Shown here piece after piece: positions 40,068-56,136 of a stretch of 64,000 nt of DNA; the first letter of the stretch is position 1; the number at the start of each line of letters is the position of its first letter. The stretch is from a virus: positions 5,840 through 69,839 of IMG/VR virus record IMGVR_UViG_3300006201_000015; one strand, written 5' to 3'. The position numbers and the translations under genes are program-made. The notes below the pieces were generated by a model. The model made no database searches. It was not told the origin of the DNA and saw nothing but the letters and a program-made list of their open reading frames with translations.

Positions 40068-40988
40068 TTAATGTGCATGACGGTCACAGTCATTCAAGAC
40101 CATAACCTGATTCCAGATATCCTCACCGAGCAAGCCTTTGAACTTTCTCTCCGTCTTGTTCGGGTTATCTGACTTTTCTACTGCGAAAGGTGCCATATGC
40201 CAGCGAATCAAAAGTGCTACTTTCAACCTTTCGTGCAGAGTCAAATCGGTAGTGTGGGCAAAGCTCTCATAAGCACCGACACGCTCATGTTGATAAAAAT
40301 GAGCAATATCTGTAGGTTCACCTTTGGCATTACAGAAAACTTTCGTATACTCCTTGCCAATATCGTGAATCGCTACCGCCCGGCCCAAAGAGATATCATT
40401 CACCCACTGGGGATACTGTTTGTCGAAATACTCATAGGCCGTTAGCATATGTTGCCCTACAGTAAACTCATGATGGGGATTATCGTGCTCCAGAGCTGCA
40501 AGGCGGGAGAGCAGAAGGCTGATACCGCCGATAAACGGTTCCACACCCTCAACCCAGATTTCGTCCCAGCCTTCAGCTTCCATAGGGATATCAAAACCCC
40601 GGTACATTCGGTCGATCACATTCTCTGGAACACTACGTTCACGGTTGGCGTTGCGCTCTACACAGAGGATATACGGCGTCGCCATGAAAACGCACACTTT
40701 CTTGATCTGGGGATTAACAGCGGTGACACGATGCAGAAATCCCATTCGGCGCTTGTAACTGACATTCGTGGCGTCGTAGACCACATCTTTACCAGCACGC
40801 AAATCGGAGAGCACACGGTCATGGAGCGTCTGGAATACCAGCTCCTGGTGGTTTTGGTCGGAGATGTCACTCAGTAGCTCTTCACGAATGGTATCACTGG
40901 AATGGATCACGGCGTCAGGCAACTTGTTCTCGGCATACCAAGACTTTCCACTTCCAGGAAGACCAACCATCATATAGAAGCACTGCAT
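40068..40988 (-). CDS. polynucleotide kinase (P-loop) fused to an HD-domain phosphohydrolase; putative RNA end-healing enzyme
   Basis: Walker A GLPGSGKS at the N-terminus. C-terminal HD region (HDIGK ... H..D). Confidence 0.6.
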   Translation of the reverse strand: MQCFYMMVGLPGSGKSWYAENKLPDAVIHSSDTIREELLSDISDQNHQELVFQTLHDRVLSDLRAGKDVVYDATNVSYKRRMGFLHRVTAVNPQIKKVCVFMATPYILCVERNANRERSVPENVIDRMYRGFDIPMEAEGWDEIWVEGVEPFIGGISLLLSRLAALEHDNPHHEFTVGQHMLTAYEYFDKQYPQWVNDISLGRAVAIHDIGKEYTKVFCNAKGEPTDIAHFYQHERVGAYESFAHTTDLTLHERLKVALLIRWHMAPFAVEKSDNPNKTERKFKGLLGEDIWNQVMVLNDCDRHAH

Positions 40989-40989
40989 T

Positions 40990-41793
40990 TTACTTACCCT
41001 CCTGTAATTCCATCAGAAACCGCCGCTTCAAAATCTCCACCGTCGCTGTCTGTAGCACCTGATCGGCGTGCTGATTGATTGCGAGAGGCACTGTATCCAT
41101 ATATTGCTTTTTATCGGCGATCATGGAATCAACTGCCTCCTGCATAAGCTGCCGCGCCTCCTCTAAGGTGTGACACCCTCTTTTTACCTCTACAAGGTAA
41201 TCCGACTGTTTGCTAACCAGACAATCAAAATAATTTTCGCCGGCCATATAGCGGGTCATAAATTCCCGCATCCGCAAGGCATGATGAAGCTGCTTAGGGT
41301 CGTACCCAAATTGCTCAATCTTGGCAAGAGCGGCGGGATAAGGATGCTCCATAGCGTGTTGCTTTTCCAACGCCATACCCAGCAGACAACTCATACCAGC
41401 ATAGTTGTTATAGCGGGCAATATCTTCTCTGGCGTCCAACACCGATTGAAACAGATCGGTGTAGAGCGGGTTGATAATGCAGTAGGGCGTGAACAGAATC
41501 TCAATGAAATTGACGTTTTGTTTGCGAATACACTCAAACATGAGCCGAATATCCTTAAAGTCCACGTGCTCATCGTTTTCCATAACATGGGTGGTGCTGA
41601 CGGGCTTGTGGGTAAGAACGAAATCTGAGAAGCTGGGGAGTACGATTGCCTTGGTATCAATATCGCTACTCTCATAATCCAGTTTGTAATTTTGTGAACC
41701 TTGCAGGAACAGGCCAACCCACGCATCTCCGAAGTGTTCTTGAACGGTAGCCAAATGCTCTTGCATCCGAGCCATAATGCGCTCCTTATTCAT
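40990..41793 (-). CDS. Pol-beta-superfamily nucleotidyltransferase
   Basis: GLFLQGSQNYKLDYESSDIDTKAIV (GS...DxD nucleotidyltransferase signature). Confidence 0.5.
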   Translation of the reverse strand: MNKERIMARMQEHLATVQEHFGDAWVGLFLQGSQNYKLDYESSDIDTKAIVLPSFSDFVLTHKPVSTTHVMENDEHVDFKDIRLMFECIRKQNVNFIEILFTPYCIINPLYTDLFQSVLDAREDIARYNNYAGMSCLLGMALEKQHAMEHPYPAALAKIEQFGYDPKQLHHALRMREFMTRYMAGENYFDCLVSKQSDYLVEVKRGCHTLEEARQLMQEAVDSMIADKKQYMDTVPLAINQHADQVLQTATVEILKRRFLMELQEGK

Positions 41794-42097
41794 CGCTACA
41801 CTCCTTCTTTCTCACACAGTCTCGTAAAATCCGCTGATAGAGGGAGGGGTCATACCCCTCCATATCAGCCCAGAACATCAAATACTCTGTGGTGTACTGA
41901 TCGGTCACATCACCGGAGACATCGTAAAGCCGGCCACCGATTTCCTGAACGAAGTGGTTAATCACTGGCTCATACATCATGTTTCCGCCAAATCTCTCTT
42001 GAAGAATAAAGGCAAACCAGTAACAGCAGCCATTTAGAAAAACCTCCTCAGAGCCTTTGAAGTTCTGGATAAAGTTGAGGATTGTAGACTTATTCAT
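41786..42097 (-). CDS. hypothetical protein
   Basis: 103-aa ORF. Confidence 0.3.
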   Translation of the reverse strand: MNKSTILNFIQNFKGSEEVFLNGCCYWFAFILQERFGGNMMYEPVINHFVQEIGGRLYDVSGDVTDQYTTEYLMFWADMEGYDPSLYQRILRDCVRKKECSDE

Positions 42098-43533
42098 CCC
42101 TCTTCTTCCATAACCTCCACCTCCTGGGCTTCCTCCATATCCGGCGCAGCGGCGGTATCTTTAATAAGCCCCTCCAGTGCCTTGAAGTAGAAGTTCTTAT
42201 GCTTGTAGGCCGCAAACTTGGGACGATTGACAATCCGACACACAACGCCCTCTCGAATATGGGTTTTGCCAACAGGGTCGGGGCCGTCATAATACCTCTC
42301 TGCGATAGCTTTGATGTATTCGCCAGCGTCCACAGCTTGGGGAGAACCCACAGCGTCGGGAAGCTGAACCATATCCGGGATAAAGCAACGCCAGAACAGC
42401 GGCACACACTTGACACCCATCTGTTCACAGCGATAACGCATGAAGTCGGGCGGGTACTCCACCACATCACCATCCTCGTTGGTCATGGTCATCCGGTAGA
42501 CATAGATGTCGGATTTGGGAACAGGCTCGGCAGATACTCCAGAACCGTCTGCTGTCGTTTTCTTGCCGGTAGGATCGCAGCCATAGCTAAAGAAAGTGGT
42601 TTTGCCGTACTGTTTGGAAAACTCCTTGTCACCAATCTTGGCGTTATTGCTAGGAGACATGATGGGCGTGCCATCATCCGTGAAACCCACCACCTCATAG
42701 TAGACCTCCTCGCCTTTGTGGAGCTTCCCTTCAAAAATCTTGGCGTGCTGTTCACGGAAAGCATTGCTACCATAGAAACCTCCGTCAAAGCTATCCAACA
42801 CTACACGGCGGGTTCCGGTAACATAACCCCAATCATAGATGGGCGTCCGCTCAATCATAGAGCGTAGCCAGTTCGGAGTTTTATCGCTCTCAAACAGCCG
42901 CTTTTGCAAACCGTTCTTATACTTGTAGCCTTGAAGCACAGGAAGATAGCCAGTACGCTGACTGGTGCCGTGCATTTTCAGCGTGATCTCTACCAGGTCG
43001 CCGGCACGGAAAGCAGACAGATTGTAGGCAAGCTGCTCTGTATCGGCGTGTTCCATGAAGAGCGGAGAAATCGGATCGGACTTCTTGCGGACACGACTTC
43101 CGCCGCCAGGACTTCCACCACTACGGTTGCGCTTAGGAATGTACTTCTCACAGATGGTGATACCGTTCACGACAGAAATTGTGTCTCCATCTTTCAGCAA
43201 AGAGGTATCAATAAATCCCTCCATGCAGGAGATGGGCAGAAACAAGCCATCACTTTTTTCTCCTCGGAGCTTCAGCGCCTTAATGTTGCGCTTCTCTGGA
43301 TCGAGGTAGCCGCCGGCGGGGTTGCCGTTCTCATCTTTTCGCCGCAGAAGGTCGTTCTTCTGAGCGAACTCTACACCGAGCTTGCCGTCTACGGGGAAGT
43401 AGACCCCCAGCTGGTCAGGTTCGGTTCCAAGATCCACAATTACCGTGTTCCCAAAGCACTCGCCACAGAGCAGACGATCAGCGTTAGTGTGCTTACGCAG
43501 ATTACGGATTTTGGTGACATACGCACAGTACAT
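42094..43533 (-). CDS. ATP-dependent RNA ligase (Rnl2/Rnl5-like nucleotidyltransferase with N-terminal OB-like domain)
   Basis: Lysine-adenylate motif EITLKMHGTS (KxHGT[NS]) about 180 aa from the start. Start trimmed to the ATG that follows the conserved leader/SD. Confidence 0.6.
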   Translation of the reverse strand: MYCAYVTKIRNLRKHTNADRLLCGECFGNTVIVDLGTEPDQLGVYFPVDGKLGVEFAQKNDLLRRKDENGNPAGGYLDPEKRNIKALKLRGEKSDGLFLPISCMEGFIDTSLLKDGDTISVVNGITICEKYIPKRNRSGGSPGGGSRVRKKSDPISPLFMEHADTEQLAYNLSAFRAGDLVEITLKMHGTSQRTGYLPVLQGYKYKNGLQKRLFESDKTPNWLRSMIERTPIYDWGYVTGTRRVVLDSFDGGFYGSNAFREQHAKIFEGKLHKGEEVYYEVVGFTDDGTPIMSPSNNAKIGDKEFSKQYGKTTFFSYGCDPTGKKTTADGSGVSAEPVPKSDIYVYRMTMTNEDGDVVEYPPDFMRYRCEQMGVKCVPLFWRCFIPDMVQLPDAVGSPQAVDAGEYIKAIAERYYDGPDPVGKTHIREGVVCRIVNRPKFAAYKHKNFYFKALEGLIKDTAAAPDMEEAQEVEVMEEEG

Positions 43534-43548
43534 TTGCATCTCTCCTTT

Positions 43549-43569
43549 GATTTTATTCGTTGTTAATAG
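43549..43569 (-). promoter_or_regulatory. conserved leader motif copy 10
   Basis: gattttattcgttgttaatag, upstream of the RNA ligase gene. Confidence 0.5.
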
Positions 43570-43598
43570 AAAAAACAAAAAAGAATAAATATAGGGGG

Positions 43599-44753
43599 TT
43601 AGGAATACATAGCTTTCAGCCTATGCGCCACACTCGCAACACCCTGAGCAGCTTGACGCATTTCATCTTCCGTAGTATCAAACCCCATTGAAATACGGAC
43701 GGTACAGGCAGCGCTTTCCTCAGATAATCCAATTCCACGCAGAACGTGTGAAGTTGTGGCGTCGGATGCGCTGCAAGCGGAACCAGCAGAAAGGTAGATG
43801 TCTTGCTGATCCAGCAACAGAAGTAAAGATTCGCTGTTGACTCCCGGCAGTGTCAAGCTGATGATAGCGGAGGAACGCCGGTCGGTATCGCCGTTGATAT
43901 GAAACTCTCCATCCATTTCGACATTAAGCTCATTCAAAAACACATCCCGCAAATGTGCCCACTGTGCCATCTGCCTTGGCAGGCGCTTGGTCGCTATCTC
44001 TGCCGCTTTGCCAATCCCCACGATTCCTGGTACATTCTCGGTGCCGCCTCGCAATCCACGCTCCTGACCTCCACCATAAACCCACGGTTCCTTTCTGATT
44101 CGATTGGAGATATACAGCACTCCAATTCCCTGGGGTGCTCCGAACTTATGACCGGAGAGAGATAGGAAGTCCACATTATAGGCGTGAACGTCGATTGGAA
44201 CGTGACCCGCCGCCGCTACTGCGTCTGTATGGAAAGGAACGTCATACTTTTTACAAAGTGTTCCGATTTCTTTGATAGGATTCACCGTTCCAAGTTCGTT
44301 GTTGACCCACATGACAGAAACGGCACCCAGCTCTTTCTTGTTCTCAATGATAAGCCGCTCCAAATCATCCAGGTCTACCGAGCCGTCCGACCAAACCCTT
44401 GCGTATTTCATAACAACGGGGAGCGGGCATACACACGCATTTTTCAACGGTTCAGAAATCGAATGATGCTCAATCTCGTCCGTAAGGACAACGTGTTTGG
44501 TCAGACATCGGAACCAGGCGTTGTTCGCCTCAGTTCCGCCGGAGGTAAAAAATATCTCCGAAGGGTCTGCACCGATCATTAGCGCTACCTGTTCTCGTGC
44601 CTTTTCGATAGCGTGGCGGGCGTTGATACCCTGGGAATGGATACTGCTGGGGTTTCCAACATGACACGTCTGAAACCATGGAAGCATGGTATCCAAGACT
44701 TCGGGAAAAGGTGCGGTCGATGCCGCATGGTCGAGATAGACCAATGATATCAC
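43599..44753 (-). CDS. cysteine desulfurase (class V aminotransferase, IscS/NifS-like)
   Basis: PLP-lysine motif SLSGHKFGAPQGIGVLY and active-site SAGSACSAS. Confidence 0.85.
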   Translation of the reverse strand: MISLVYLDHAASTAPFPEVLDTMLPWFQTCHVGNPSSIHSQGINARHAIEKAREQVALMIGADPSEIFFTSGGTEANNAWFRCLTKHVVLTDEIEHHSISEPLKNACVCPLPVVMKYARVWSDGSVDLDDLERLIIENKKELGAVSVMWVNNELGTVNPIKEIGTLCKKYDVPFHTDAVAAAGHVPIDVHAYNVDFLSLSGHKFGAPQGIGVLYISNRIRKEPWVYGGGQERGLRGGTENVPGIVGIGKAAEIATKRLPRQMAQWAHLRDVFLNELNVEMDGEFHINGDTDRRSSAIISLTLPGVNSESLLLLLDQQDIYLSAGSACSASDATTSHVLRGIGLSEESAACTVRISMGFDTTEDEMRQAAQGVASVAHRLKAMYS

Positions 44754-44822: not shown

Positions 44823-44842
44823 GATTTTATTCGTTATTAGTC
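44823..44842 (-). promoter_or_regulatory. conserved leader motif copy 11 (overlaps the 3' end of the vWA gene; about 60 nt upstream of the cysteine desulfurase start, with an intervening hairpin)
   Basis: gattttattcgttattagtc. Confidence 0.45.
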
Positions 44843-46396
44843 GTTGACAACAGGACGCAGTGCGTCCTCGATAGGCTGGTAGCGCTCAGTGTTCAGCGTT
44901 TCCAACAGACACTCATAGGGATCGAGCTTGCCACTCATCACCATCTGAGCGATGTTGACGGAGAAACCGCTGACCAGCGCCACGCCCATGTCGTTCTCCC
45001 TAACGGGAATCGTCCCAGAGCGGCTGGCAACATTCCAGAACACCAATCTGGGCATTTTGTAACCTGCCTGCTGATACCGCCTATTGATCTCGTCAAAAAG
45101 GCGGGCGTTTGGCCTCTGCGTGTTGTAGCTCCACCGATCTCTCGAAGGAGCACCGCAGCTGGCACAAGCATCAAACTCCATATCGGAAATGATGAGAATG
45201 TTGGCAGGCAAGTCATTCTGATTCATATGCTTAGAAACCGCTGTTTCCAGGATGAGATCAAAGACTGCCTCCACGTTGGTATTGGCTCCAGCATGGCAAG
45301 CATGGACAATTTGAAGCCGCTCATAGAGGTTCTTGCCACTGGAGATGTCGAGGAGCTGCGGTCTGTCGGAGAAGGACATATACTGATCCTTGAATTGACC
45401 AGAAGATCGCTCGGCAAAATAGATCGCCAAGGCGTTTGCCACCTCCAACGGACGAGCGGAACTCCCAGGGAGCATCACCCACTCCATACTTCCGCTATCG
45501 TCCATAACCACCATCGTGTTTCCACAACCCTGTACCGTGTCAGGCAAATTCTGCCACAATGCCTCCAGTGTGGCGTCCACGCCGTGGCTCTGACGATACT
45601 TGTTGACAATATCGTGCGGGAACAGCGTACCAGCGTTGATCTTGGCCTCGCCGTTCTCCACCCGACTAAGGAACTCACGGCGGCGCTCCTCATCGTGGCG
45701 GAGGAAAGCCTTGTTGTAAATCAGGTTGGCACGGGAGGGGACTCGCTGGTAATCAATCCCGTCCCAATCGTTCTTGGACATCTGCTGCTCCACAACAACC
45801 AGGTAACGGGACAGGCCAGAAAGAGTATGCCGATAGGTACGCTCGGTCATATTCAACCCTTCGCACAGAATACGGGCGTAATGACGAGACTCCTTAGAAG
45901 AGGACTTGCGGCGCGGCATCCACTTTGCCAGCAGAGAGATCGGCTTCTGCTCGACGTTGTTATGCAGATCGTCATGCAGCTGCCTTGCCACCAGCTCAAT
46001 CACCTTATCGCCCACCGGCGTATCCAGCAGACACCAGAGATCGTCCCAACGCCCATACTCAGGCACCAACGACAGCACCGGTGTAACGTACTCCGGAAAC
46101 TTCTTTGCCATCGGCACCATAGCCGCACGAAACAGTCGGCGCTCACCCAGCCCGCCACGCACATCGCGGGCAAAGAACAGCCACTTCATCGCTGTCACCT
46201 TATCCTCGAAAAACGCCTGGGTGAAGCGATCCGCGATCTCCTTAACGCTGGCGTTACGGAGAGACGCCACGGCAAAGTTGAGATCCAGCAAAGATCGACC
46301 AGTGGTGCGATAGCCGACCGCCCCATTCTCGGTAACAGAGATATTGTTTGCGCCGTCCAGCATCGTGTCCTTGACACTTTCCATAAAGTTGCTCAT
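44837..46396 (-). CDS. vWA-domain protein of the DUF2828/UCP015417 type; N-terminal helical domain possibly TROVE (Ro60)-like
   Basis: MIDAS motifs VVMDDSGSM and ISDMEFD in the C-terminal half. Large helical N-terminal domain. Confidence 0.5.
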   Translation of the reverse strand: MSNFMESVKDTMLDGANNISVTENGAVGYRTTGRSLLDLNFAVASLRNASVKEIADRFTQAFFEDKVTAMKWLFFARDVRGGLGERRLFRAAMVPMAKKFPEYVTPVLSLVPEYGRWDDLWCLLDTPVGDKVIELVARQLHDDLHNNVEQKPISLLAKWMPRRKSSSKESRHYARILCEGLNMTERTYRHTLSGLSRYLVVVEQQMSKNDWDGIDYQRVPSRANLIYNKAFLRHDEERRREFLSRVENGEAKINAGTLFPHDIVNKYRQSHGVDATLEALWQNLPDTVQGCGNTMVVMDDSGSMEWVMLPGSSARPLEVANALAIYFAERSSGQFKDQYMSFSDRPQLLDISSGKNLYERLQIVHACHAGANTNVEAVFDLILETAVSKHMNQNDLPANILIISDMEFDACASCGAPSRDRWSYNTQRPNARLFDEINRRYQQAGYKMPRLVFWNVASRSGTIPVRENDMGVALVSGFSVNIAQMVMSGKLDPYECLLETLNTERYQPIEDALRPVVND

Positions 46397-46474
46397 ATTC
46401 TCTTACCTCCTATAATTTTGAGATACCTCGGAACACAGTTGTCATCTTGCTATTGCTGTATGTGTTCAGAGAAT

Positions 46475-46598
46475 TGGAGCGGCAGGTAGGAATCGAACCT
46501 ACGAATGGCAGCTTGGCTTCCTTTTTACCTTGCTGTTAGTGAAACTTCCGCTTCACATTTTTTATAGGGCTGCTGTGTTACCACTTCACCACTGCCGC
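46475..46598 (-). tRNA. tRNA-like gene with a ~50-nt insertion replacing the anticodon loop
   Basis: 7-bp acceptor GCGGCAG/CTGCCGC, encoded CCA, D-arm, T-arm GTAGG-TTCGATT-CCTAC, anticodon stem GCAGC/GCTGC. The stem encloses a 57-nt loop that contains a hairpin and CACTAACAGCAAGG. Confidence 0.5.
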
Positions 46599-46811
46599 AT
46601 AGTTGCTTGTCTTTCCAAGCTGCCACAGCCCAGTTCAAGATATTTGGGCTGATTATCTGGCGCTTATTTTCAGAGCAGACGTAAGCGATCCCAAAGCCCT
46701 GCCCTTATCCATTCATTAGCGAGAATGGATTTCGCTTGCGTTTTATCATCCGCAACTACGCCGGTTTTTTTCTTGACGACTCGAAAGAACACCGGAAAAC
46801 AAAGGAGTCTT

Positions 46812-46926
46812 GTGCCAGGGGTGGGAATCGAACCCACGACCACGGGATTAAAATTCCTTCAATCATTGCTGTGAGCGTTTCATACGATACGCATTGATAC
46901 GCGCTCTATCCACTGAGCTACCCTGG
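46812..46926 (-). tRNA. tRNA-like gene, anticodon region atypical (contains CTCACAGCAATG)
   Basis: Acceptor GCCAGGG/CCCTGGC, D-arm GCTC-AGTGGAT-AGAGC, T-arm GTGGG-TTCGATT-CCCAC. No canonical anticodon stem found. Confidence 0.4.
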
Positions 46927-47128
46927 CTTGAGGTGATAGGGTATGGGCCACTCTCCCATACAAACAGTGTTCTCCACGGTTGCGCACCCGTTTCAATAAA
47001 CATGACGTTTACAATCTTTTCGTCTATGCTACACCGTTTTACATAAGGGTTCATCCGTCGTTTTTGTACATCGGGCAGCTACTCCCAATGCGCATGGTCA
47101 GCTATTCCATGACGCCCTTCTTTTTAGT

Positions 47129-47204
47129 CACAGCGAATGGGACTCGAACCCAATCCTTCCGGCCCCACATGGGCCAGCGTGCTATCCAGCTACACCACAT
47201 CTGC
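47129..47204 (-). tRNA. standard-length tRNA-like element with weak acceptor pairing and non-canonical anticodon loop (possible pseudo-tRNA)
   Basis: T-loop TTCGAGT, D-arm GTGT-AGCTGGATA-GCAC, anticodon arm TGGCC-CATGTGG-GGCCG (A at position 33). Confidence 0.3.
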
Positions 47205-47432
47205 TAAGGCACGAGGATTTGCCTTATGAGCTTTCTCTTTGCTCACCTATCTCTTGCTGTCCTGGCTCTCACAGGTGGGAGTGGTACAACTCCCAGACGT
47301 TCCGATTTGCACGGTCACTACACTTGTTTTACGTCCGTTGCTGATCACCTTTAGACGGCGTTCTCTGTACCAGAGCAATCGCATTCTGCATCCGAACCGC
47401 AAAGAAAGGATTTGCGTACAAAAGTACGCTTG

Positions 47433-47548
47433 TGCAGAGGGTAGGACTCGAACCTACGACACATAGTTCCCCATTATACATTGCTGTTAGTGAGGCTGTG
47501 CGCTCCACATTTTCTATACTATTGCTCTACCGACTGAGCTACCTCTGC
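47433..47548 (-). tRNA. tRNA-like gene with a ~43-nt insertion replacing the anticodon loop
   Basis: Acceptor GCAGAGG/CCTCTGC, D-arm GCTC-AGTCGGT-AGAGC, T-arm GTAGG-TTCGAGT-CCTAC, anticodon stem ATAGT/ACTAT around a 50-nt loop with hairpin and TCACTAACAGCAATG. Confidence 0.5.
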
Positions 47549-47664
47549 ATATTGGGAGGTTTTCATTGCTGCCTGTGTTTTTTCATTACACATATGAATG
47601 CGGGAACCTCCCAGGAACCGCCGTATTCATGATATTAGCGGACGCATTTTTTCCAAAATTTTAG

Positions 47665-47686
47665 AATGAATTGCTGTTAGCGTCCC
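47665..47686. repeat. left copy of a ~20-bp direct repeat (gaattgctgttagcgtccca) that carries the ACAGCAAT motif
   Basis: Identical sequence recurs at 48333-48355. Confidence 0.5.
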
Positions 47687-47966
47687 AGTTGATAACTTTT
47701 TCAATGTTGTGCCGGAAGCGGTAAGTATGATGTTATTGACATCACTTAGGGCTTGTCTCGTGCTTTGTTCATGCAGAGCCTCCTTAACTGCATCCCAATC
47801 TTCCGCACTTTTGTGGGCGGTTCACATTTTGAAACCTGTTGGGGCACCGCCCCATACGTTTCAGCAGCCGATTACATTACATTTTCCAAAGATAACTCAG
47901 ATGGTCTGGTCACGTGCTCTACTCATGGCACGAATCTCCTTTCTAAGAATTATCATAGCGGCTTTT

Positions 47967-47991
47967 AGGGGAGCCTACGGACTCGAACCGT
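47967..47991 (-). ncRNA. tRNA-like 3' half (T-arm TACGG-TTCGAGT-CCGTA plus acceptor 3' strand); 5' half not resolved
   Basis: Canonical T-arm. Upstream RNA contains CACGCACAGCAATTTAC, a variant of the insert motif. Confidence 0.3.
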
Positions 47992-48170
47992 AGAGGAAAA
48001 GATTTGCAGTCTTCTTGTATAGTAAATTGCTGTGCGTGTCCGCCGCCCGTTACACGGTATGGCCTGCCACCCGACGCTCCCATATTGCTCGTCTTTCCGA
48101 GCTGTCAGCGGTCTTTCCCGCCGTCAAGAAAGGGGGCTTACAATGTACGCTATGCCGCTCACCACACGGC

Positions 48171-48261
48171 TGGCGGAGAGGGTGGGACTTGAACCCACAC
48201 GCCCTTGCGGGTTACTGGCACCTTAGCAGGATGCTTCCTTACCAATTAGGATTACCCCTCC
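48171..48261 (-). tRNA. tRNA-Ser (anticodon GCU), class II with long variable arm, CCA encoded
   Basis: Acceptor GGAGGGG/CCTCTCC, anticodon arm GCATC-CTGCTAA-GGTGC, long variable arm, T-arm GTGGG-TTCAAGT-CCCAC. Confidence 0.8.
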
Positions 48262-48332
48262 ATATGTGGCGATTTCCGCCACCACGGGACGCATTTTCAA
48301 CTGGATGAATTAAATGTTCATTGTTTTGAAAT

Positions 48333-48355
48333 TGCTGTTAGCGTCCCAAAACAAA
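48333..48355. repeat. right copy of the ~20-bp direct repeat (aaattgctgttagcgtccca)
   Basis: Matches 47665-47686. Confidence 0.5.
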
Positions 48356-48704: not shown

Positions 48705-49637
48705 TTAATTCATGCCGGGGATGGATACGATAGCGTTAGAACCAGACACCGTAGGCATCTTACCATCCCACTGTTCGTATTTGATCTTCTCAATCAGCTC
48801 AGGAGTGAGAGAGGAAGCAATTTCACGGTTAGCCTGAGCCTCTGCCTCTGCCGCAATCCGAACAACTTCCGCCTCGGCATTCGCTTTAACGATAGCAGTC
48901 TCTGCTTGAATCTCAGCGGCCTCCTTATCCTTCTGTGCCTGAATCATAGCGACTTCCTTGTCTTTGTTAGCCTGGATTTTGGCGGTCTGAGCCTCAATAT
49001 TTGCCAGTTCCAGTTCCTGCTGGGCAGTTACTTTCTTCTGAATAGCCGCTGCCGTTTCAGAATCCACGGAGATGTCAGTAAAGTTCACCGTATCAATGAT
49101 AATGCCGTACTTGTCAAACTTCTCCTTGAGGTACAGATCCAATTCCGCATTGATGGCTGTGCGTTTATCGCCAAAGATGTCTGTAACGGGATAGTTGGCA
49201 CTGACTTCCTGTGTCCATGCGATAATCTTGGGCTTAATAAAGGTATCCTTGATTTCCTCGCCAGACTTGCCCTTAAAGGTAACAAATGTGCTTGCTACAC
49301 GCGCCTCATCGAAGCGGTAGGAGAACTCCAGATTAACTCGGACTGTCTTACCATCCGATGTGGGAATACTGAAACTCTCGTCGTTCTTGCTGTCTCCCTT
49401 ATCGTCGGATGTCAGGTAGCTTTGCTCAATGCCGATGGAATAGGTAGTGACCTTTTTGGTGGGCGCTACCAAATTCCAGCCCTGGGATAGAACCTCACCG
49501 TCTACACCACCGTTCATGTTGTAAACCACTCCGACGTAACCTGCGGGCACACGGCTGGTACACAGCAGAGCCAGGATAATACCGCCAAAAATTAGGACAG
49601 CCAGAACGATCGCTCCAATGAAACCTTTCTTTCTCAT
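48705..49637 (-). CDS. SPFH/band-7 (prohibitin/stomatin-like) membrane protein
   Basis: N-terminal TM helix, SPFH core, long Ala/Glu-rich coiled-coil tail. Confidence 0.8.
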   Translation of the reverse strand: MRKKGFIGAIVLAVLIFGGIILALLCTSRVPAGYVGVVYNMNGGVDGEVLSQGWNLVAPTKKVTTYSIGIEQSYLTSDDKGDSKNDESFSIPTSDGKTVRVNLEFSYRFDEARVASTFVTFKGKSGEEIKDTFIKPKIIAWTQEVSANYPVTDIFGDKRTAINAELDLYLKEKFDKYGIIIDTVNFTDISVDSETAAAIQKKVTAQQELELANIEAQTAKIQANKDKEVAMIQAQKDKEAAEIQAETAIVKANAEAEVVRIAAEAEAQANREIASSLTPELIEKIKYEQWDGKMPTVSGSNAIVSIPGMN

Positions 49638-52648: not shown

Positions 52649-53029
52649 TCACGCCCGAAACACAATAGACTCCTTTTGAGGTGCCATTTGATGATACACC
52701 TCCTGTATAGCCTCCCACAACTGATCTTCCGTACAATATTTCATATATTCCTGATGTGCGTACTCAGCACGCTCCTCATGATTCAACTTCCGATATTCGT
52801 ACAGATCTCTTACTTGAGCCGCTATGCTGATAGGCTTTCGCTTTCGGAACGGCGTGATATAGATGTCCTCAATCCTATATGTGCAGTTTCCGTGATAATC
52901 CAACATTGTTCTAACAACGATTTCAACACGTTCCTTTTTCTCGTTTATAAATGTCATATTGACACCTCCATTATTCAATCTTTTGTTCACCCCAAGCGAT
53001 GTAGGACTTTCCATCCTCATCCACCTCAC
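52649..53029 (-). CDS. hypothetical protein
   Basis: 126-aa ORF. Confidence 0.3.
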   Translation of the reverse strand: MRWMRMESPTSLGVNKRLNNGGVNMTFINEKKERVEIVVRTMLDYHGNCTYRIEDIYITPFRKRKPISIAAQVRDLYEYRKLNHEERAEYAHQEYMKYCTEDQLWEAIQEVYHQMAPQKESIVFRA

Positions 53030-56024
53030 GAGACATGAGGAGGCTCATCAAATCGTAGTCCACGCCGAATCTGTCATAAATCTCGTCCAAATCGACATCC
53101 TGCCCTTTCATGAAGAGGTTCAGCTTTTCTTTGGAAAGAACCATCTGCATCTGATTTGACTCAATGCTTCCAGCGTGTGTAATGAAATAGATATCCTTCC
53201 AGTCCGTTGAAGTAAAGCGGACAAACCGCATATAAAACTGGCTCATCCGAGCGTTGTTGTAGTGCAACTCTGGAATCAATATCTTATTCACGAACTCAAA
53301 GTTGACGGAGGAGGGGAGGCACTGCTGCGTGCAAAGCAGAATGCCATTCCCACTGTCCTTGAGCGTCTGTTTCAGCTTTCGGCGTCCGGCCAGTGTAGTC
53401 GTGCTGCCAGTAACTACAAACAATGGACGGTCTGGGAAACATCGGCGAATCTCATCTGCATATGCGGCCACAACATTCTTGTGACGAACACCAATCACCA
53501 CGATCTCATTTTTCCACCCATCCAGCATGGAGCAGACTTTTTCTATCTTGGTTGGTGTCTTGTCGCTGTTATACTCTTCCACAGTGTTGGGCGCAGCAGA
53601 AATTCTGAGTAGTAAAGTAATCTGCTGAATCAACGCCATCATGCTGTCCTTACGGCTGTTACCAGTAAGAGCAAAGTAGTGCTGCCGCATGAAATAAAAC
53701 TCCTCCACCGCTTTCTTATAAACCGCTTGTTCCGCAAGGGAAAAAGAAACCTGCACCTGATGAATACGACGGATCTCTTTTCCGGTGATTTCCGCAAACG
53801 TCCGAGTAATGACGGAATAGGACAGAATTTTGTTTAGTGCCTCAGCGTTGAAAATATCCTGGTTTTTCTTACCCACTCCAAAAACTGTAATTTTCTCCGG
53901 CAGATGGGACTCAGCAAAGAGTGTGTAACCTGGTTTATAGGCGGGGATGGGTTTTCCATAGAAGGGGTTGTTTGAAATGCTCAAATAGTCCTTGCCATCG
54001 CTACCCTTCTCGTAATAATAGAGCGAATCCGCCCAGGATATCATGTTGTAAGAGTTGTTGTAGAGCAGTTCCAACTGAGGAGCACTCTCCGAAATATTGT
54101 TGCGGGTAACGGTGCCGGTCATTGCCAGCTTAAAACGCACTTTCCGAAAGCAATCCAGCACAGCCTTAGTACGCTTGCTGTTAGGGTTAGTCATCTCGTC
54201 CGATTCATCAAAGACCAGGCAAACATTTCTGTTCCTAATTTTGATGTGGCGTTTAACTTGTTTCCGATACTTGGAAAGCATATTCAAAGTGATAATGACG
54301 AACTCTCCATCCTGCACTGTGTTCAAATCAGCAAGGTTACGGATCATTCGATAGTTGGTCATGCCATAATTCTTGAATACCAAATCCCAGTTATTCTTGA
54401 TGGAGATAGCTGTTGATACTACCCAGACATTCCTTGCCCCTTGGTGTTCCATCCGATACCGGCCAGTAGAGATACCAGCCAGCGTCTTACCGCCACCCTG
54501 TTCCCACTGCAGCAGGTGATAGTGCTTTTGAAGTACAAGGTTCAAATCGTGGCGTTGGATTTCATTGAGGTATATCCATTCTTCGTTTTCCTGATCGTAA
54601 ACGGTAAACTCCGACAGAAAACGGGCAATCTCAGCGTTCTCCTCCATATCCGCAAAAGGCTTTGTTTCCCGTTCATAATTTCTCTGCTTACGCCGAATGA
54701 GGCGGGCAAAAGGCTCCAATCCCGTATTTTCTACCTGTCCCGAAGCGAGAGCGTAAAAAGGGATAGGCTCTTTCATATCTGGGGTCATGGTCTGCCGAGC
54801 TTTTTTACTGTATCCTTTGTGGATCAGTCCGCTGTCCTGCTTGACCAGCCGCACGATATCACGGTCGGGCTTTCTGTTCTGAGAGCGGATAACTCGACGA
54901 AGGTAGGCCAAAACCTTGGGCTGGGTAATGCGGATTTTTGCCCACTCTTCATACTTCATTCCGTCTGGCTGTTTCTGATTTTCAAAACGGTAAAGATATT
55001 CCTGGCATTTCGCATATTTGTCTACCAGTTTGGGATTGTTCTTAATGTGGTACAACATTTTCTGTACCTGATAATGAAAATCATCTTCGTTTTCACCACG
55101 AGATACCAGCTTAACACGGGTGCGCTCTGAAGACATCCGCTCCTTTGCTTGTTTGATAATTGCCTCCTGAACCACATCGAGCAGGTCGCTGGCGTGCTCC
55201 ATACTGGAAATGTTGAACCAATTAGCGGTATTCAGCTCATATTGGTTTCCAGTCTCCTCATCGGTCAGCTTGCGCTGCCAAAAGAGAATTTTAGTGGCAT
55301 AGTCCTCTACACCCAAGGACTTAAAAGCGTCTTTCTGGACTGAAACCTGCCCTAAGAAGCTGAACAACTTCTCCAGTTCATTCCGCTTGGCGCTGTCCAA
55401 ATAATCATCAGCCAGAAAAGAGGCAGGAACGACGATAGCCATAATCCCCAAGGGCTTTAACAGCTGGGCGGCTTTCAGGCAGTAGTACATCTGAGAAATG
55501 ATTTCCCCCTGTGGTGTGTCCCATTTCAGATTAAACGGCGGATTTCCCACGATGTAGTCAAAACGCATATCTGGCTCGTAGAAACGGATATCCTTGTGTT
55601 CCAGATTTGCGGTAGGGTAGAGGTAATGCGCTACCTTGTGAGATTTGATATCCAGCTCGCACCCATAGAAGTTTGCCTCTACTGGCATATAGTTACAAAA
55701 GTTAGCAATTCCAGAAGTGAGATCAGCCACAGTCTCTCCCATTCCAACGCCCAGCACATTCATGATGAACTGGCACAGAACTGGAGGGGTAAAAAATTGG
55801 CCGTTTTCGATTTCTTTCTTAGCCTCAGAGAACTCGTAATAGTTGGCGAAATCAGAACGCTTCAGGCCATGCAGCCCACCGTCCCCAGTGTAGGCGTTGA
55901 AAATATCCTCACGGGTAATTCCCTCACGCTCCGCCAGATCCTGATCGACAAGGTAGAGAATCTTTTCATTCAGTTCCTGACGGGCCTCCTGTGGGATTCT
56001 CTCATTGTGAAACGTGTATTTCAT
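52971..56024 (-). CDS. fusion of N6-adenine DNA methyltransferase and SNF2-family helicase
   Basis: NPPF motif (IVGNPPFNLKW) and FxGxG-like segment in the N-terminal third. Walker A GGGKTLAG and DESDEM box in the C-terminal helicase part. Start set at MKYTFHN, behind the leader motif. Confidence 0.7.
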   Translation of the reverse strand: MKYTFHNERIPQEARQELNEKILYLVDQDLAEREGITREDIFNAYTGDGGLHGLKRSDFANYYEFSEAKKEIENGQFFTPPVLCQFIMNVLGVGMGETVADLTSGIANFCNYMPVEANFYGCELDIKSHKVAHYLYPTANLEHKDIRFYEPDMRFDYIVGNPPFNLKWDTPQGEIISQMYYCLKAAQLLKPLGIMAIVVPASFLADDYLDSAKRNELEKLFSFLGQVSVQKDAFKSLGVEDYATKILFWQRKLTDEETGNQYELNTANWFNISSMEHASDLLDVVQEAIIKQAKERMSSERTRVKLVSRGENEDDFHYQVQKMLYHIKNNPKLVDKYAKCQEYLYRFENQKQPDGMKYEEWAKIRITQPKVLAYLRRVIRSQNRKPDRDIVRLVKQDSGLIHKGYSKKARQTMTPDMKEPIPFYALASGQVENTGLEPFARLIRRKQRNYERETKPFADMEENAEIARFLSEFTVYDQENEEWIYLNEIQRHDLNLVLQKHYHLLQWEQGGGKTLAGISTGRYRMEHQGARNVWVVSTAISIKNNWDLVFKNYGMTNYRMIRNLADLNTVQDGEFVIITLNMLSKYRKQVKRHIKIRNRNVCLVFDESDEMTNPNSKRTKAVLDCFRKVRFKLAMTGTVTRNNISESAPQLELLYNNSYNMISWADSLYYYEKGSDGKDYLSISNNPFYGKPIPAYKPGYTLFAESHLPEKITVFGVGKKNQDIFNAEALNKILSYSVITRTFAEITGKEIRRIHQVQVSFSLAEQAVYKKAVEEFYFMRQHYFALTGNSRKDSMMALIQQITLLLRISAAPNTVEEYNSDKTPTKIEKVCSMLDGWKNEIVVIGVRHKNVVAAYADEIRRCFPDRPLFVVTGSTTTLAGRRKLKQTLKDSGNGILLCTQQCLPSSVNFEFVNKILIPELHYNNARMSQFYMRFVRFTSTDWKDIYFITHAGSIESNQMQMVLSKEKLNLFMKGQDVDLDEIYDRFGVDYDLMSLLMSREVDEDGKSYIAWGEQKIE

Positions 56025-56038
56025 ACAGTCACCACCTT

Positions 56039-56058
56039 GATTTTGTTCGTTATTATAA
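56039..56058 (-). promoter_or_regulatory. conserved leader motif copy 13
   Basis: gattttgttcgttattataa, upstream of the methyltransferase-helicase gene. Confidence 0.5.
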
Positions 56059-56136
56059 AAAGTTGTGGATGGAGGCTTTTGAGTAGAGTCCTCCAAGAAC
56101 CACGCCCCTATTCTTATTACAGAGGCAATTCAAATC

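What the first reader, a model, noticed from the sequence alone, without database searches (positions are those of the whole stretch)
46475..48261. tRNA-like genes whose anticodon loop is replaced by a conserved ~45-57-nt element (ACAGCAA motif)
- Six minus-strand tRNA T-arms cluster here: 46475-46598, 46812-46926, 47129-47204, 47433-47548, ~47967-48080 and 48171-48261.
- Only the last is a canonical tRNA, tRNA-Ser(GCU).
- Two others (46475-46598 and 47433-47548) have perfect acceptor, D and T arms and a 5-bp anticodon stem. That stem encloses a 50-57-nt loop instead of 7 nt.
- The two inserts align: AAAATGTGRAGCG..hairpin..TCACTAACAGCAAKGTAWAA. The hairpins covary (GTGAA/TTCAC versus GTGGAG/CTCAC).
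- Variants of the core, CTCACAGCAATG and CGCACAGCAATT, occur in the two other tRNA-like elements.
- The same core also sits in the 20-bp direct repeats at 47665 and 48333.
- The inserts are far too short for group I introns, and BHB-type introns are not expected in bacteria or phage.
- Unspliced, these RNAs cannot decode.
- Alternatives are a new class of small spliced or processed inserts, tRNA-mimic ncRNAs such as decoys or Y-RNA-like partners of the adjacent vWA/TROVE-like protein, or split or processing-site-bearing precursors.
Basis: seen in the sequence. Interest (0 to 1): 0.85.

Follow-up and report, generated by a model that had tools for sequence, protein, structure and literature searches.

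The report
tRNA-shaped partner RNAs of phage Ro-like protein
The odd "tRNAs with a stuffed anticodon loop" are real: they belong to a large, apparently undescribed family of phage tRNA-derived small RNAs that carry a conserved helix-plus-ACAGCAA module and are encoded next to a Ro60-like protein inside an RNA-repair gene set, so they are most likely Y-RNA-like partner RNAs and not decoding tRNAs.

Summary
The Rfam tRNA model hits three 115-121-nt cloverleaves carrying 49-55-nt inserts, plus tRNA-Ser(GCU). A fourth insert-bearing tRNA-like and a degenerate 76-nt one are also present.

The insert is a module: a covarying helix (P1) closed by a G-C pair. An A-rich ..AAU segment flanks it 5', and (C)UA-ACAGCAA flanks it 3'.

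The module sits at different sites in different tRNA bodies. It also occurs three times outside tRNAs, once in the leader of the next gene.

That gene (DUF2828) models as a full-length structural homolog of Ro60.

The same module lies beside DUF2828 genes in coliphage JH2, mycobacteriophage Krypton555, Listeria LMTA-57, Campylobacter CP81 and KVP40. There it is often in a circularly permuted, YrlA-like layout.

A motif-only scan of viral contigs gave more than 120 loci, and 58 of the 120 held encode DUF2828.

Neighbouring genes are an RNA ligase, a nucleotidyltransferase, a kinase/HD protein and Band-7.

Best reading: Y-RNA-like, tRNA-mimicking partner RNAs of a Ro-like protein. Rfam has no such family.

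A cut-and-ligate intron or permuted-tRNA reading is not excluded.

The parts
48286..48347 (-). Short 'open' module E0. It runs P1 strand GGGACGC, then UA-ACAGCAA, an inner hairpin, ..AAAAU, and P1 strand GCGUCCC. It lies just upstream of tRNA-Ser.
   Evidence: Sequence read. The MFE fold pairs 7 bp and leaves UAACAGCAA unpaired. Motif hit.
48171..48261 (-). Canonical tRNA-Ser(GCU), the only ordinary tRNA in the cluster.
   Evidence: ARAGORN. Rfam 46.6 bits. Syntenic in all related loci.
48083..48125 (-). Leader made of two hairpins with GAAAGA loops, directly 5' of tRNA-like X.
   Evidence: Fold z-score -5.2. A 43-nt match at 95% identity to Vibrio phages includes a compensatory change in hairpin 1.
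47968..48081 (-). tRNA-like X. It has an acceptor stem, a T arm and an anticodon-like hairpin (loop CUGCAAA). A module (P1 GUGU/ACAC, GC-ACAGCAA) replaces the D-arm / D-anticodon junction region.
   Evidence: Orthologs keep U33/A37 but change the triplet (GCA, UGA, GGA, GGU, GUA).
47640..47685 (-). Short 'open' module E1 (GGACGC, UA-ACAGCAA, hairpin, AAAAAU, GCGUCC).
47433..47548 (-). tRNA-like A. It is a full cloverleaf whose anticodon stem AUAGU/ACUAU encloses about 50 nt. P1 is the capped hairpin at 47490-47508 and ACAGCAA is at 47481-47487.
   Evidence: Rfam 56.5 bits. Alignment. ARAGORN calls it only in intron mode.
47129..47204 (-). Degenerate 76-nt tRNA-like with no module. Its acceptor stem is mismatched and its anticodon loop has 9 nt. 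An isolated ACAGCAA lies upstream at 47254-47260.
   Evidence: Rfam 25.6 bits, below the gathering threshold of 29..
46813..46927 (-). tRNA-like C. The module is inserted between positions 28 and 29 of the anticodon stem. An intact loop AUUUUAA follows. ACAGCAA is at 46866-46872.
   Evidence: Rfam 48.5 bits. The structure is 98.4% paired in 15 orthologs, 10 pairs show compensatory change and 0 of 500 shuffles reach this. Excision gives tRNA-Lys(UUU).
46605..46620 (-). Single GAAAGA-loop hairpin in the leader of tRNA-like B.
   Evidence: Fold z-score -3.3 for 46599-46665. The same leader precedes B-type RNAs in other loci.
46478..46598 (-). tRNA-like B. It has a Gly-like body (G1-C72, C2-G71, G3-C70, U73, encoded CCA). 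The module sits in the anticodon loop with P1 GUGAA/UUCAC. ACAGCAA is at 46530-46536. The 3' loop part AAGCCAA is conserved.
   Evidence: Rfam 51.1 bits. Fold z-score -3.7. Orthologs.
46431..46467 (-). Short 'open' module (GAACAC, AU-ACAGCAA, .., GUGUUC), 35 nt upstream of the DUF2828 start codon.
   Evidence: An equivalent copy lies directly upstream of the gene in L002, KVP40, Listeria and Campylobacter phages.
44837..46396 (-). DUF2828/DUF7788 protein (519 aa), a Ro60-like ring plus vWA domain. It is the presumed protein partner.
   Evidence: Pfam. PHROG 850 'RNA-binding protein'. AF2 model gives Foldseek top hits Ro60 9l5y_A at E 3.7e-8 and Rsr 2nvo at E 1.1e-6.
42094..43578 (-). ATP-dependent RNA ligase (494 aa).
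   Evidence: PHROG 968 at E 8e-64. Weak Pfam RNA_ligase and TIGR02306 hits.
40990..41793 (-). Nucleotidyltransferase-like protein (267 aa).
   Evidence: PHROG 388 at E 4e-15. No Pfam hit.
40068..40988 (-). Polynucleotide-kinase-like P-loop domain fused to an HD domain (306 aa).
   Evidence: Pfam AAA_33 at E 2.5e-19 and HD at E 0.0049. TIGR04075 Pnkp N-terminal region. PHROG 505.
48705..49637 (-). SPFH/Band-7 protein (310 aa), upstream of the RNA cluster.
   Evidence: Pfam Band_7 at E 7e-26. The same Band-7 / tRNA / Ro-like order occurs in Mycobacterium phage Krypton555.

Best explanation
The 46.4-48.35 kb minus-strand stretch is a cluster of small non-coding RNAs that all carry one RNA module.

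The module is a 5-8 bp helix (P1) closed by a G-C pair. An A-rich ..AAU segment precedes it on one strand. The single-stranded sequence (C)UA-ACAGCAA follows it on the other.

The module comes in two layouts:
- Closed layout. In four RNAs (A, B, C, X) the module is grafted into a tRNA body. P1 is capped by a loop and the RNA ends lie at the acceptor stem.
- Open layout. In three short RNAs P1 is the terminal stem and encloses only a small hairpin.
- In other phages the open layout encloses a circularly permuted tRNA: anticodon arm, T arm, loop-capped acceptor stem, then D arm. That is the architecture of bacterial YrlA Y RNAs.

Proposed mechanism:
- I infer that the module is the docking site for the Ro60-like DUF2828 protein encoded immediately downstream.
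- I infer that the tRNA-shaped part presents a tRNA surface, including an anticodon loop whose triplet changes quickly between relatives. That surface could engage tRNA-handling enzymes or tRNA-targeting nucleases.
- The resulting RNP would work with the co-encoded RNA ligase, nucleotidyltransferase, kinase/HD protein and Band-7 protein. This would be a phage counterpart of the bacterial rsr-yrlBA-rtcBA RNA-repair unit.

Shown here: the RNA structures and their covariation, the gene linkage, and the Ro60-like fold.

Inferred only: binding, the absence of splicing, and the repair or decoy role.
For: (1) Real RNA structure.
- In C-type orthologs 98.4% of cells are paired and 10 of 25 pairs show compensatory change. 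No shuffle in 500 reaches this, and slid controls give 32-55% pairing.
- In 138 distinct model hits the P1 helix is 97% paired. Its outer pair is G-C in 68 of 81, and the inner pairs take 5-6 pair types.
- Of 408 C-NN-ACAGCAA sites, 333 have a 6-bp partner, against 136 of 408 for a scrambled strand. The partner is most often preceded by AAAAU.
- P1 lengths peak at 7-8 bp.

(2) Linkage to the protein gene.
- All 16 loci found through the protein carry 6-9 same-strand modules upstream of the gene.
- Of 120 loci found only through the RNA pattern, 58 encode a DUF2828 homolog at 22-83% identity.
- Modules abut the gene in JH2 and Krypton555 and in Listeria LMTA-57, Campylobacter CP81 and KVP40.
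- The T4 and T5 tRNA regions lack both the gene and the module.

(3) The protein is Ro60-like. Foldseek's only significant PDB hits are phage phiLo Ro60 and D. radiodurans Rsr, aligned over the full length.

(4) Precedent.
- phiLo Ro60 binds two Y-like RNAs encoded just upstream of its gene. Each has a terminal stem flanking a loop with a conserved CGAA motif (PMC12135203).
- YrlA RNAs mimic tRNA and lie within 4 kb of Ro60 on the same strand (PMC4201824).

(5) Not ordinary decoders.
- ARAGORN rejects them.
- In A and B orthologs no excision leaves a 7-nt loop with U33.
- Permuted copies in JH2 and Krypton555 have 6-nt loops.
- Module-bearing copies duplicate anticodons that canonical tRNAs in the same arrays already supply: Arg-UCU in L050 and L109, Leu-UAA in L065 and L127.

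(6) Repair context. RNA ligase, nucleotidyltransferase, kinase/HD and Band-7 genes surround the cluster.
Against: - No binding or expression data exist.
- Only about half of the motif-derived loci show DUF2828 within the stretch held, and this fraction does not rise with locus length.
- The module is inserted at four or five different tRNA positions. Some copies are flanked by 5-nt direct repeats of the anticodon-stem strand (L065, L076). Excision of C gives a perfect tRNA-Lys.
- Permuted copies of the L050 type have canonical loops and a covarying 27-43 pair.
- All of these are what an intron or permuted-gene system would also show.
- The model-fitted alignment A5 leans towards the structure it was fitted to.
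- The negative controls are only two phage regions.
Confidence: 0.58

Rival explanations
1. The module is a protein-dependent intron signal.
- An endonuclease would cut on both sides of the module, and the phage kinase/phosphatase plus RNA ligase would rejoin the exons.
- Closed copies would then be intron-containing tRNA genes.
- Open copies would be permuted tRNA genes that mature through a circular intermediate, as in archaea and red algae.
- The Ro-like protein would hold or chaperone the substrate.
For: - The insertion site varies: anticodon loop, stem 28/29, D-anticodon junction, and D loop in L003:5659-5776. Non-canonical archaeal introns vary in the same way.
- In-silico excision yields tRNA-Lys(UUU), tRNA-Pro(GGG) and tRNA-Gly(GCC) that ARAGORN accepts.
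- Permuted L050-type genes reassemble into canonical cloverleaves with loops CUUCUAA, CUUAAAA, CUUAUAA or CUUUUAA. The 27-43 pair, split between the two gene ends, covaries as U-A, C-G and G-C.
- L065, L127 and L076 keep a duplicate of the anticodon-stem 5' strand on both sides of the insert.
- Healing and sealing enzymes are encoded alongside. RtcB lies near the gene in the Listeria phage.
Against: - No endonuclease candidate and no bulge-helix-bulge geometry were identified.
- The distance from the module to the exon boundary is not fixed: 7-14 nt on either side.
- A- and B-type orthologs do not regain a U33 7-nt loop under any simple excision.
- JH2 and Krypton555 permuted copies have 6-nt loops.
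- Short modules enclose no tRNA at all.
- Interrupted copies are redundant with canonical tRNAs of the same anticodon.
- C-type orthologs carry triplets such as GCU on a class I body.
Confidence: 0.2
2. The tRNA-like RNAs act mainly as decoys or sponges for host tRNA-targeting defence nucleases, or as sensors that trigger repair. In this reading the module merely stabilises or marks them, and DUF2828 linkage is secondary.
For: - The anticodon triplet is the fastest-changing part of otherwise conserved bodies. C-type orthologs carry UUU, GUU, UGU, GCU or UCU while U33, A37 and A38 are kept.
- L039 and L097 are near-identical yet differ as UCU against GUU.
- X-type triplets vary likewise.
- Copies mirror anticodons of canonical tRNAs in the same phage.
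Against: - A and B types lack a normal anticodon loop, and short modules have no tRNA part. A decoy role therefore cannot explain the whole family.
- No nuclease target data exist.
- Triplet turnover could also reflect relaxed constraint.
Confidence: 0.12
3. The motif is a DNA-level signal, such as a phage promoter, a recombination site or the end of a small mobile element, and it has happened to land in decaying tRNA pseudogenes.
For: - The sequence (C)ACUA-ACAGCAA loosely resembles single-subunit RNA polymerase promoters. This is from recall, not tested.
- Copies precede tRNA-Ser and the DUF2828 gene.
- Direct repeats flank some inserts.
Against: - The partner strand of P1 covaries, both over 10-30 nt (closed layout) and over 30-250 nt (open layout), while the motif stays fixed. 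That points to selection at the RNA level.
- The interrupted tRNA bodies keep compensatory changes in all arms, so they are not decaying pseudogenes.
- In the window the extended motif is essentially confined to this cluster and is not spread genome-wide.
Confidence: 0.05

Closest known systems
Bacterial and phage Y RNAs: YrlA/YrlB (Rfam RF02553; Chen et al. 2014, PMC4201824) and phiLo Yrl1/Yrl2 (PMC12135203)
   Same: - They are encoded next to, and on the same strand as, a Ro60-type ring protein.
- A terminal stem flanks a loop that carries a short conserved motif.
- One class carries a tRNA-like domain with T arm, D arm and loop-capped acceptor stem, which is exactly the 'open' permuted layout seen in JH2, Krypton555 and many contigs. 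A second, shorter class lacks that domain.
- They are embedded in an RNA-repair operon.
   Different: - The conserved motif is ACAGCAA with an A-rich opposite flank, not GNCGAAN0-1G / CGAA.
- The Rfam YrlA model does not match (17 bits against a threshold of 69).
- The protein belongs to Pfam DUF2828/DUF7788, not TROVE.
- In this window the layout is the reverse permutation: normal tRNA gene order with the module inside the anticodon arm.
- Many copies keep a complete anticodon hairpin.
Non-canonical tRNA introns and permuted or split tRNA genes of Archaea and Cyanidioschyzon (BHB endonuclease plus RtcB pathway; reviewed in PMC4090602 and PMC3400036)
   Same: - A short insert lies at variable tRNA positions.
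- Permuted genes have a linked acceptor stem.
- A helix flanked by unpaired conserved segments sits at the junction.
- RNA ligase genes are nearby.
   Different: - There is no BHB geometry and no EndA-type endonuclease.
- The host range is bacterial phages.
- Many copies cannot yield a functional anticodon loop.
- The module also occurs with no tRNA around it.
Stable tRNA-like RNAs of unknown function in T4 (rnaC, rnaD) and T5 (RNA1, RNA2, RNA3)
   Same: They are phage-encoded, tRNA-sized or larger stable RNAs embedded in tRNA clusters, with a T arm and an acceptor-like end.
   Different: Neither the T4 nor the T5 region contains the ACAGCAA module or a DUF2828 gene.
RNA-repair gene neighbourhoods with ROT/TROVE and SPFH/Band-7 scaffolds and 'a novel tRNA-like molecule' (Burroughs & Aravind 2016, NAR 44:8525; recalled from the abstract, paper not held)
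   Same: The gene syntax is the same: RNA ligase, nucleotidyltransferase, kinase/phosphatase and a scaffold protein, with an associated tRNA-like RNA.
   Different: I could not read what RNA they describe. Nothing I could access defines the P1/ACAGCAA module, its two topologies or its link to DUF2828.

Membership tests
tRNA (Rfam RF00005) | Cloverleaf scoring at or above the gathering threshold | tested here: met
   A scores 56.5, B 51.1 and C 48.5 bits against a threshold of 29. The 47129-47204 element scores 25.6 bits and fails.
tRNA (Rfam RF00005) | 7-nt anticodon loop with U33, in an uninterrupted anticodon arm | tested here: not met
   49-55 nt are inserted. ARAGORN in default mode rejects all of them. 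C keeps a 7-nt loop, but its stem is split at 28/29.
tRNA (Rfam RF00005) | Aminoacylation and decoding | not testable with these tools
   Needs acid-gel Northern blots or charged-tRNA sequencing.
YrlA / Y RNA (RF02553) | Encoded beside a Ro60-type protein gene on the same strand | tested here: met
   The cluster ends 35 nt upstream of the DUF2828 gene. That protein's model matches Ro60 structures.
YrlA / Y RNA (RF02553) | Match to the family covariance model at the gathering score | tested here: not met
   The best hit is 17.1 bits against 69, at E = 4.3. No YrlA hit appears in 25 related loci.
YrlA / Y RNA (RF02553) | GNCGAAN0-1G / CGAA motif in the Ro-binding region | tested here: not met
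   The conserved motif here is (C)UA-ACAGCAA. The YrlA motif is as given in PMC4201824 and PMC12135203.
YrlA / Y RNA (RF02553) | tRNA-like domain with T and D arms | tested here: met
YrlA / Y RNA (RF02553) | Physical binding to the Ro protein | not testable with these tools
   Needs EMSA, RIP or cryo-EM.
Ro60 / TROVE proteins | HEAT-repeat ring plus vWA fold | tested here: met
   AF2 model with pLDDT 77 and pTM 0.72. Foldseek hits 9l5y_A at E 3.7e-8 and 2nvo at E 1.1e-6, over 504-554 aligned columns, with TM-scores of 0.45-0.50.
Ro60 / TROVE proteins | Sequence-level match to the TROVE family or to solved Ro60 chains | tested here: not met
   Pfam gives DUF2828 and DUF7788, with vWA_Ro60 only at E 0.0047, below its cut-off. 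phmmer against PDB sequences finds nothing.
Group I intron in a tRNA anticodon loop | Catalytic core of 200 nt or more, and a match to the Rfam intron model | tested here: not met
   The inserts are 43-58 nt. No Rfam hit appears even at E <= 10.
Endonuclease/ligase-spliced (BHB-type) tRNA intron or permuted tRNA gene | Excision restores a canonical tRNA | tested here: inconclusive
   Excision works for C, and formally for A and B in the window, and for L050-type permuted genes. It fails for A and B orthologs and for the JH2 and Krypton555 copies.
Endonuclease/ligase-spliced (BHB-type) tRNA intron or permuted tRNA gene | Bulge-helix-bulge motif and a splicing endonuclease gene | tested here: not met
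   No 3-4-3 BHB can be drawn at the junctions. None of the roughly 20 neighbouring proteins scanned hits an endonuclease family. The whole window was not scanned.
Phage/bacterial RNA-repair cassette (ligase + NTase + end-healing + scaffold) | Co-located RNA ligase, nucleotidyltransferase, kinase/phosphatase and scaffold genes | tested here: met
   PHROG 968, 388 and 505; Pfam AAA_33, HD and Band_7; plus DUF2828.

The most novel reading that the evidence does not exclude
The P1/ACAGCAA module may be the recognition signal of a previously unknown RNA cut-and-rejoin system in bacteriophages that is independent of group I introns.
- It would splice inserts out of tRNA genes at several positions.
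- It would mature circularly permuted tRNA genes through circular intermediates.
- It would use the phage's own kinase/phosphatase and RNA ligase, with the Ro-like protein as substrate holder.
- This would make tRNA supply, including a CUA suppressor-like copy in L076, conditional on phage gene expression.
Probability: 0.17. Interest if true: 0.95.

Novelty: new variant of a known kind. Interest (0 to 1): 0.76.

Why it matters
DUF2828 'RNA-binding proteins' occur in at least 710 sequenced phages. These include Felix O1-like coliphages, KVP40-like vibriophages, Listeria, Staphylococcus and Enterococcus Herelleviridae, Campylobacter phages and mycobacteriophages. No RNA partner has been reported in anything I could search.

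What the module provides:
- A concrete, sequence-defined ligand (P1 plus ACAGCAA) to test for binding.
- A handle for annotating hundreds of overlooked small-RNA genes in phage tRNA arrays. These are currently missed or mis-called as pseudo-tRNAs.

It also extends the Ro/Y-RNA paradigm to a second protein family. The same RNP idea has been built in two circular permutations of a tRNA.

If the RNAs act with the adjacent ligase and kinase, this would be a phage tRNA-repair or anti-defence device. That would be relevant to the current work on tRNA-targeting immunity.

If instead they are spliced, it would be the first protein-type tRNA splicing and the first permuted tRNA genes in the bacterial virus world.

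Tried and rejected
- Rfam at permissive thresholds over the region and over 25 related loci found only tRNA. There was no ribozyme, intron or Y RNA hit.
- T4 rnaC/rnaD and the T5 stable tRNA-like RNAs were checked as possible relatives. They have no module.
- A flank-to-flank helix 'P0' (UCAAU/AUUGA in C) was considered. It is absent in the closest ortholog L002, so it was dropped.
- The resemblance of GU...UACUAAC..AG to group II or spliceosomal signals was noted. It was set aside because joined 'exons' do not give tRNAs and no catalytic core is present.
- A resemblance to the 11-nt tetraloop receptor, with possible docking of the GAAAGA loops, is speculation only and was not pursued.
- A 5-bp partner search proved non-discriminating (638 of 645 sites). 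I therefore rely on the 6-bp search with a scrambled control and on the length distribution.
- A regular expression meant to count 27-43 covariation in permuted genes returned nothing. The six cases cited were read by eye.
- Literature searches for DUF2828, for Band-7 plus tRNA-like, for permuted tRNA plus phage, and for the motif string found nothing relevant.
- The Burroughs & Aravind 2016 paper could not be opened.
- Sequence-only comparison of the protein with PDB chains failed. The fold comparison succeeded.


Full report
**1. What is in the window**

On the minus strand between 48350 and 46400 there is no credible ORF. Instead there is a dense row of RNA-like elements.

- ARAGORN finds only tRNA-Ser(GCU) at 48171-48261.
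- The Rfam tRNA model finds three more cloverleaves above its gathering score: 47433-47548 (A), 46478-46598 (B) and 46813-46927 (C). Each skips 49-55 nt in the anticodon region.
- A sub-threshold 76-nt element lies at 47129-47204.
- A further element, X at 47968-48081, has a good acceptor stem and T arm.
- The motif CRCTAACAGCAAT, with up to 2 mismatches, occurs 13 times in the window against 3 expected. Seven copies lie on this strand within 1.9 kb.

**2. Anatomy of the insert**

I compared the window with 16 loci recovered through the neighbouring protein and with many more recovered through the RNA itself. This shows that the conserved unit is a module with three parts.

- A helix P1, commonly 7-8 bp, whose terminal pair is almost always G-C.
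- An A-rich run ending in AAU, directly 5' of the G strand.
- The sequence UA-ACAGCAA, directly 3' of the C strand.

ACAGCAA is invariant while P1 changes freely with compensation.

- In 15 C-type orthologs, 3 of the 4 P1 pairs show double changes. The whole structure is 98.4% paired, against 32-55% when partners are slid, and 0 of 500 shuffles reach this.
- In 138 distinct hits of a covariance model, P1 is 97% paired with 5-6 pair types at inner positions. That alignment is fitted to the model, so it leans towards the structure.
- Of 408 C-NN-ACAGCAA sites, 333 have a perfect 6-bp partner, against 136 for a scrambled strand.

This is selection at the RNA level. It argues against a promoter or a recombination site.

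**3. Two topologies and several insertion sites**

In the window the module occurs in two ways.

- 'Closed': P1 is capped by a loop and the module is embedded in a tRNA body.
- 'Open': P1 is the outer stem and encloses only a small hairpin. These copies are at 48286-48347, 47640-47685 and 46431-46467.

The embedding site differs between the closed elements.

- In A and B the module is inside the anticodon loop.
- In C it lies between positions 28 and 29 of the anticodon stem, and the split stem CG+GGA / UCCCG and the loop AUUUUAA are intact.
- In X it lies between the acceptor stem and a complete anticodon hairpin.
- In a relative (L003:5659-5776) it lies in the D loop.

In many other phages the open form encloses a circularly permuted tRNA. 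Its order is:

- motif, then 7-9 nt;
- anticodon arm;
- T arm;
- acceptor 3' strand, a short loop, then acceptor 5' strand;
- U8, then a canonical D arm;
- positions 26 and 27, then ..AAAAU and the second P1 strand.

The circular order of parts is identical in both topologies.

**4. The neighbouring protein and the gene set**

The gene that starts 35 nt after the last module (44837-46396) is a DUF2828/DUF7788 protein (PHROG 850 'RNA-binding protein').

- Sequence searches against PDB chains find nothing.
- An AlphaFold model built on 32 homologs (pLDDT 77, pTM 0.72) has only two significant Foldseek hits. Both are Ro60 proteins aligned over the full length: Thermus phage phiLo Ro60 (9l5y, E 3.7e-8) and D. 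radiodurans Rsr (2nvo, E 1.1e-6).

Downstream genes are a NifS/DndA-like cysteine desulfurase, an RNA ligase, a nucleotidyltransferase-like protein and a polynucleotide-kinase-like P-loop/HD fusion. Upstream lies a Band-7 protein.

As far as I recall it, this is the 'syntax' of RNA-repair systems described by Burroughs and Aravind (2016). I could not open that paper.

**5. Linkage of RNA and protein across phages**

- Every protein-derived locus has the same upstream cluster: tRNA-Ser, sometimes tRNA-Leu, then three to four long tRNA-likes and 6-9 motifs on the gene's strand.
- Of the 120 loci held, 58 encode a DUF2828 homolog at 22-83% identity within the few kb available. This fraction does not depend on locus length.
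- tblastn finds the protein in 710 GenBank phages.

In all five phages I opened, modules abut the gene.

- JH2 (Felix O1-like): a short copy and a permuted tRNA-like copy, with P1 AGACC/GGUCU.
- Krypton555 (mycobacteriophage): two short copies and one permuted copy, with P1 GGACCCC/GGGGUCC. Band-7 and tRNA-Tyr lie upstream.
- Listeria LMTA-57: three copies within 330 nt upstream, and RtcB nearby.
- Campylobacter CP81 and KVP40 also carry copies next to the gene.

The tRNA regions of T4 and T5 have neither the gene nor the module.

**6. Are they tRNAs that get spliced?**

Arguments for splicing:

- Excising the insert from C gives a sequence that ARAGORN calls tRNA-Lys(UUU). Chosen excisions of A and B give Pro(GGG) and Gly(GCC).
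- L050-type permuted genes reassemble into canonical tRNAs, and the 27-43 pair that spans the two gene ends covaries.
- Some inserts are flanked by duplicate copies of the anticodon-stem strand (L065, L127, L076).
- A ligase and a kinase are at hand.

Arguments against splicing:

- In orthologs of A and B no excision leaves a 7-nt loop with U33.
- The JH2 and Krypton555 permuted copies have 6-nt loops.
- Short modules contain no tRNA at all.
- The distance from the module to the tRNA body varies between 7 and 14 nt.
- No endonuclease or BHB geometry was found.
- Interrupted copies duplicate anticodons already supplied by canonical tRNAs in the same array: Arg-UCU in L050 and L109, Leu-UAA in L065 and L127.

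I therefore rank splicing second, but it is not excluded.

**7. Most likely mechanism**

The architecture is a terminal or capped stem next to a short invariant single-stranded motif, joined to a tRNA-like domain or to a small hairpin. The RNAs come in several copies directly beside a Ro60-type gene inside an RNA-repair set.

That is the architecture of YrlA/YrlB next to rsr and rtcBA (PMC4201824). It is also the architecture of Yrl1/Yrl2 upstream of phiLo Ro60, which bind that protein in vitro (PMC12135203).

I therefore propose that the module docks the DUF2828 ring and that the tRNA-shaped part recruits or distracts tRNA-recognising factors.

One striking detail is that C- and X-type orthologs keep U33, A37 and A38 but swap the triplet.

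- C-type triplets are UUU, GUU, UGU, GCU and UCU.
- X-type triplets are GCA, UGA, GGA, GGU and GUA.
- The swap occurs even between near-identical sequences.

This suggests that the displayed 'anticodon' matters. It would matter for mimicry of particular tRNAs that host nucleases attack, or that the repair enzymes mend. This last step is inference only.

**8. Relation to known families and novelty**

- The RNAs are not members of Rfam YrlA: 17 bits against a threshold of 69, and a different motif.
- They are not functional-looking tRNAs by ARAGORN.
- They are not group I introns.
- The protein is Ro60-like by fold but not by Pfam family.
- Searches of the held literature for DUF2828, the motif, Band-7 plus tRNA-like, and permuted tRNA in phages found nothing describing these RNAs.
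- The 2016 comparative-genomics paper mentions 'a novel tRNA-like molecule' with Band-7 systems. It may overlap with these RNAs, and I could not check.

I class the finding as a new variant of a known kind: a second Ro/Y-RNA-type pairing, with a distinct RNA signature and an unusual pair of tRNA permutations.

The interest is high because the system sits in many well-studied phages and is directly testable.

Noticed in passing
window 48083-48125 (-) and 46605-46620 (-); L001 4001-4043: Hairpins with GAAAGA loops form the 5' leaders of tRNA-likes X and B. The 43-nt double hairpin is 91-95% identical to an intergenic stretch of about 13 Vibrio phages (for example MG592655), with a compensatory C-G to A-U change. 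In the Vibrio phage it lies in a 1.4-kb non-coding region that also holds a tRNA-like gene. Its function is unknown. The sequence ACAGC-hairpin-GCAA looks like the ACAGCAA motif split by a hairpin.
   Followed up: partly
window 43599-44753, 38650-39552, 37283-38113 (-): A NifS/DndA-like cysteine desulfurase and two PAPS-reductase/PP-loop-like proteins are interleaved with the RNA-repair genes. This could be a nucleic-acid thiolation system (Dnd-like DNA modification or tRNA thiolation). Close relatives share these genes.
   Followed up: no
window 52971-56096 (-): A 1041-aa fusion of an N6-adenine methylase (N6_Mtase/Eco57I-like) with a ResIII/DEAD helicase domain.
   Followed up: no
L065 8238-8409; L127 4043-4192; L076 1455-1578: Two related viral contigs carry tandem tRNA(CUA) genes, which ARAGORN calls 'tRNA-Pyl'. 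This suggests TAG-recoded phages. In L076 a module-bearing class II tRNA-like has the loop CUCUAAA (anticodon CUA), flanked by exact UCAGA repeats. If the insert were removed it would be an amber suppressor.
   Followed up: no
L003 5659-5776: A C-type tRNA body in which the module sits in the D loop instead of the anticodon stem. This shows that the module has moved, or been grafted, independently.
   Followed up: partly
L140 (Mycobacterium phage Krypton555) 1493-5700: The order Band-7-like lipoprotein, then tRNA-Tyr, then small ORFs, then Ro-like DUF2828, then three ACAGCAA modules mirrors the window's Band-7 / RNA cluster / DUF2828 order. Host phyla are unrelated. This points to an old conserved unit.
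   Followed up: partly
L144 (phage T5) 5285-8950 and 15849-16567: The T5 record annotates eight stable RNAs of unknown function, three of them called tRNA-like, plus a 719-nt RNAX next to a lipoprotein gene and tRNA-Arg. None carries the ACAGCAA module.
   Followed up: partly
window 47205-47330 (-): The spacer before the degenerate 76-nt tRNA-like holds several stable hairpins and an isolated CCAGG-ACAGCAA. I could not assign a clear P1 partner to it, so it may be a decayed or divergent module.
   Followed up: no
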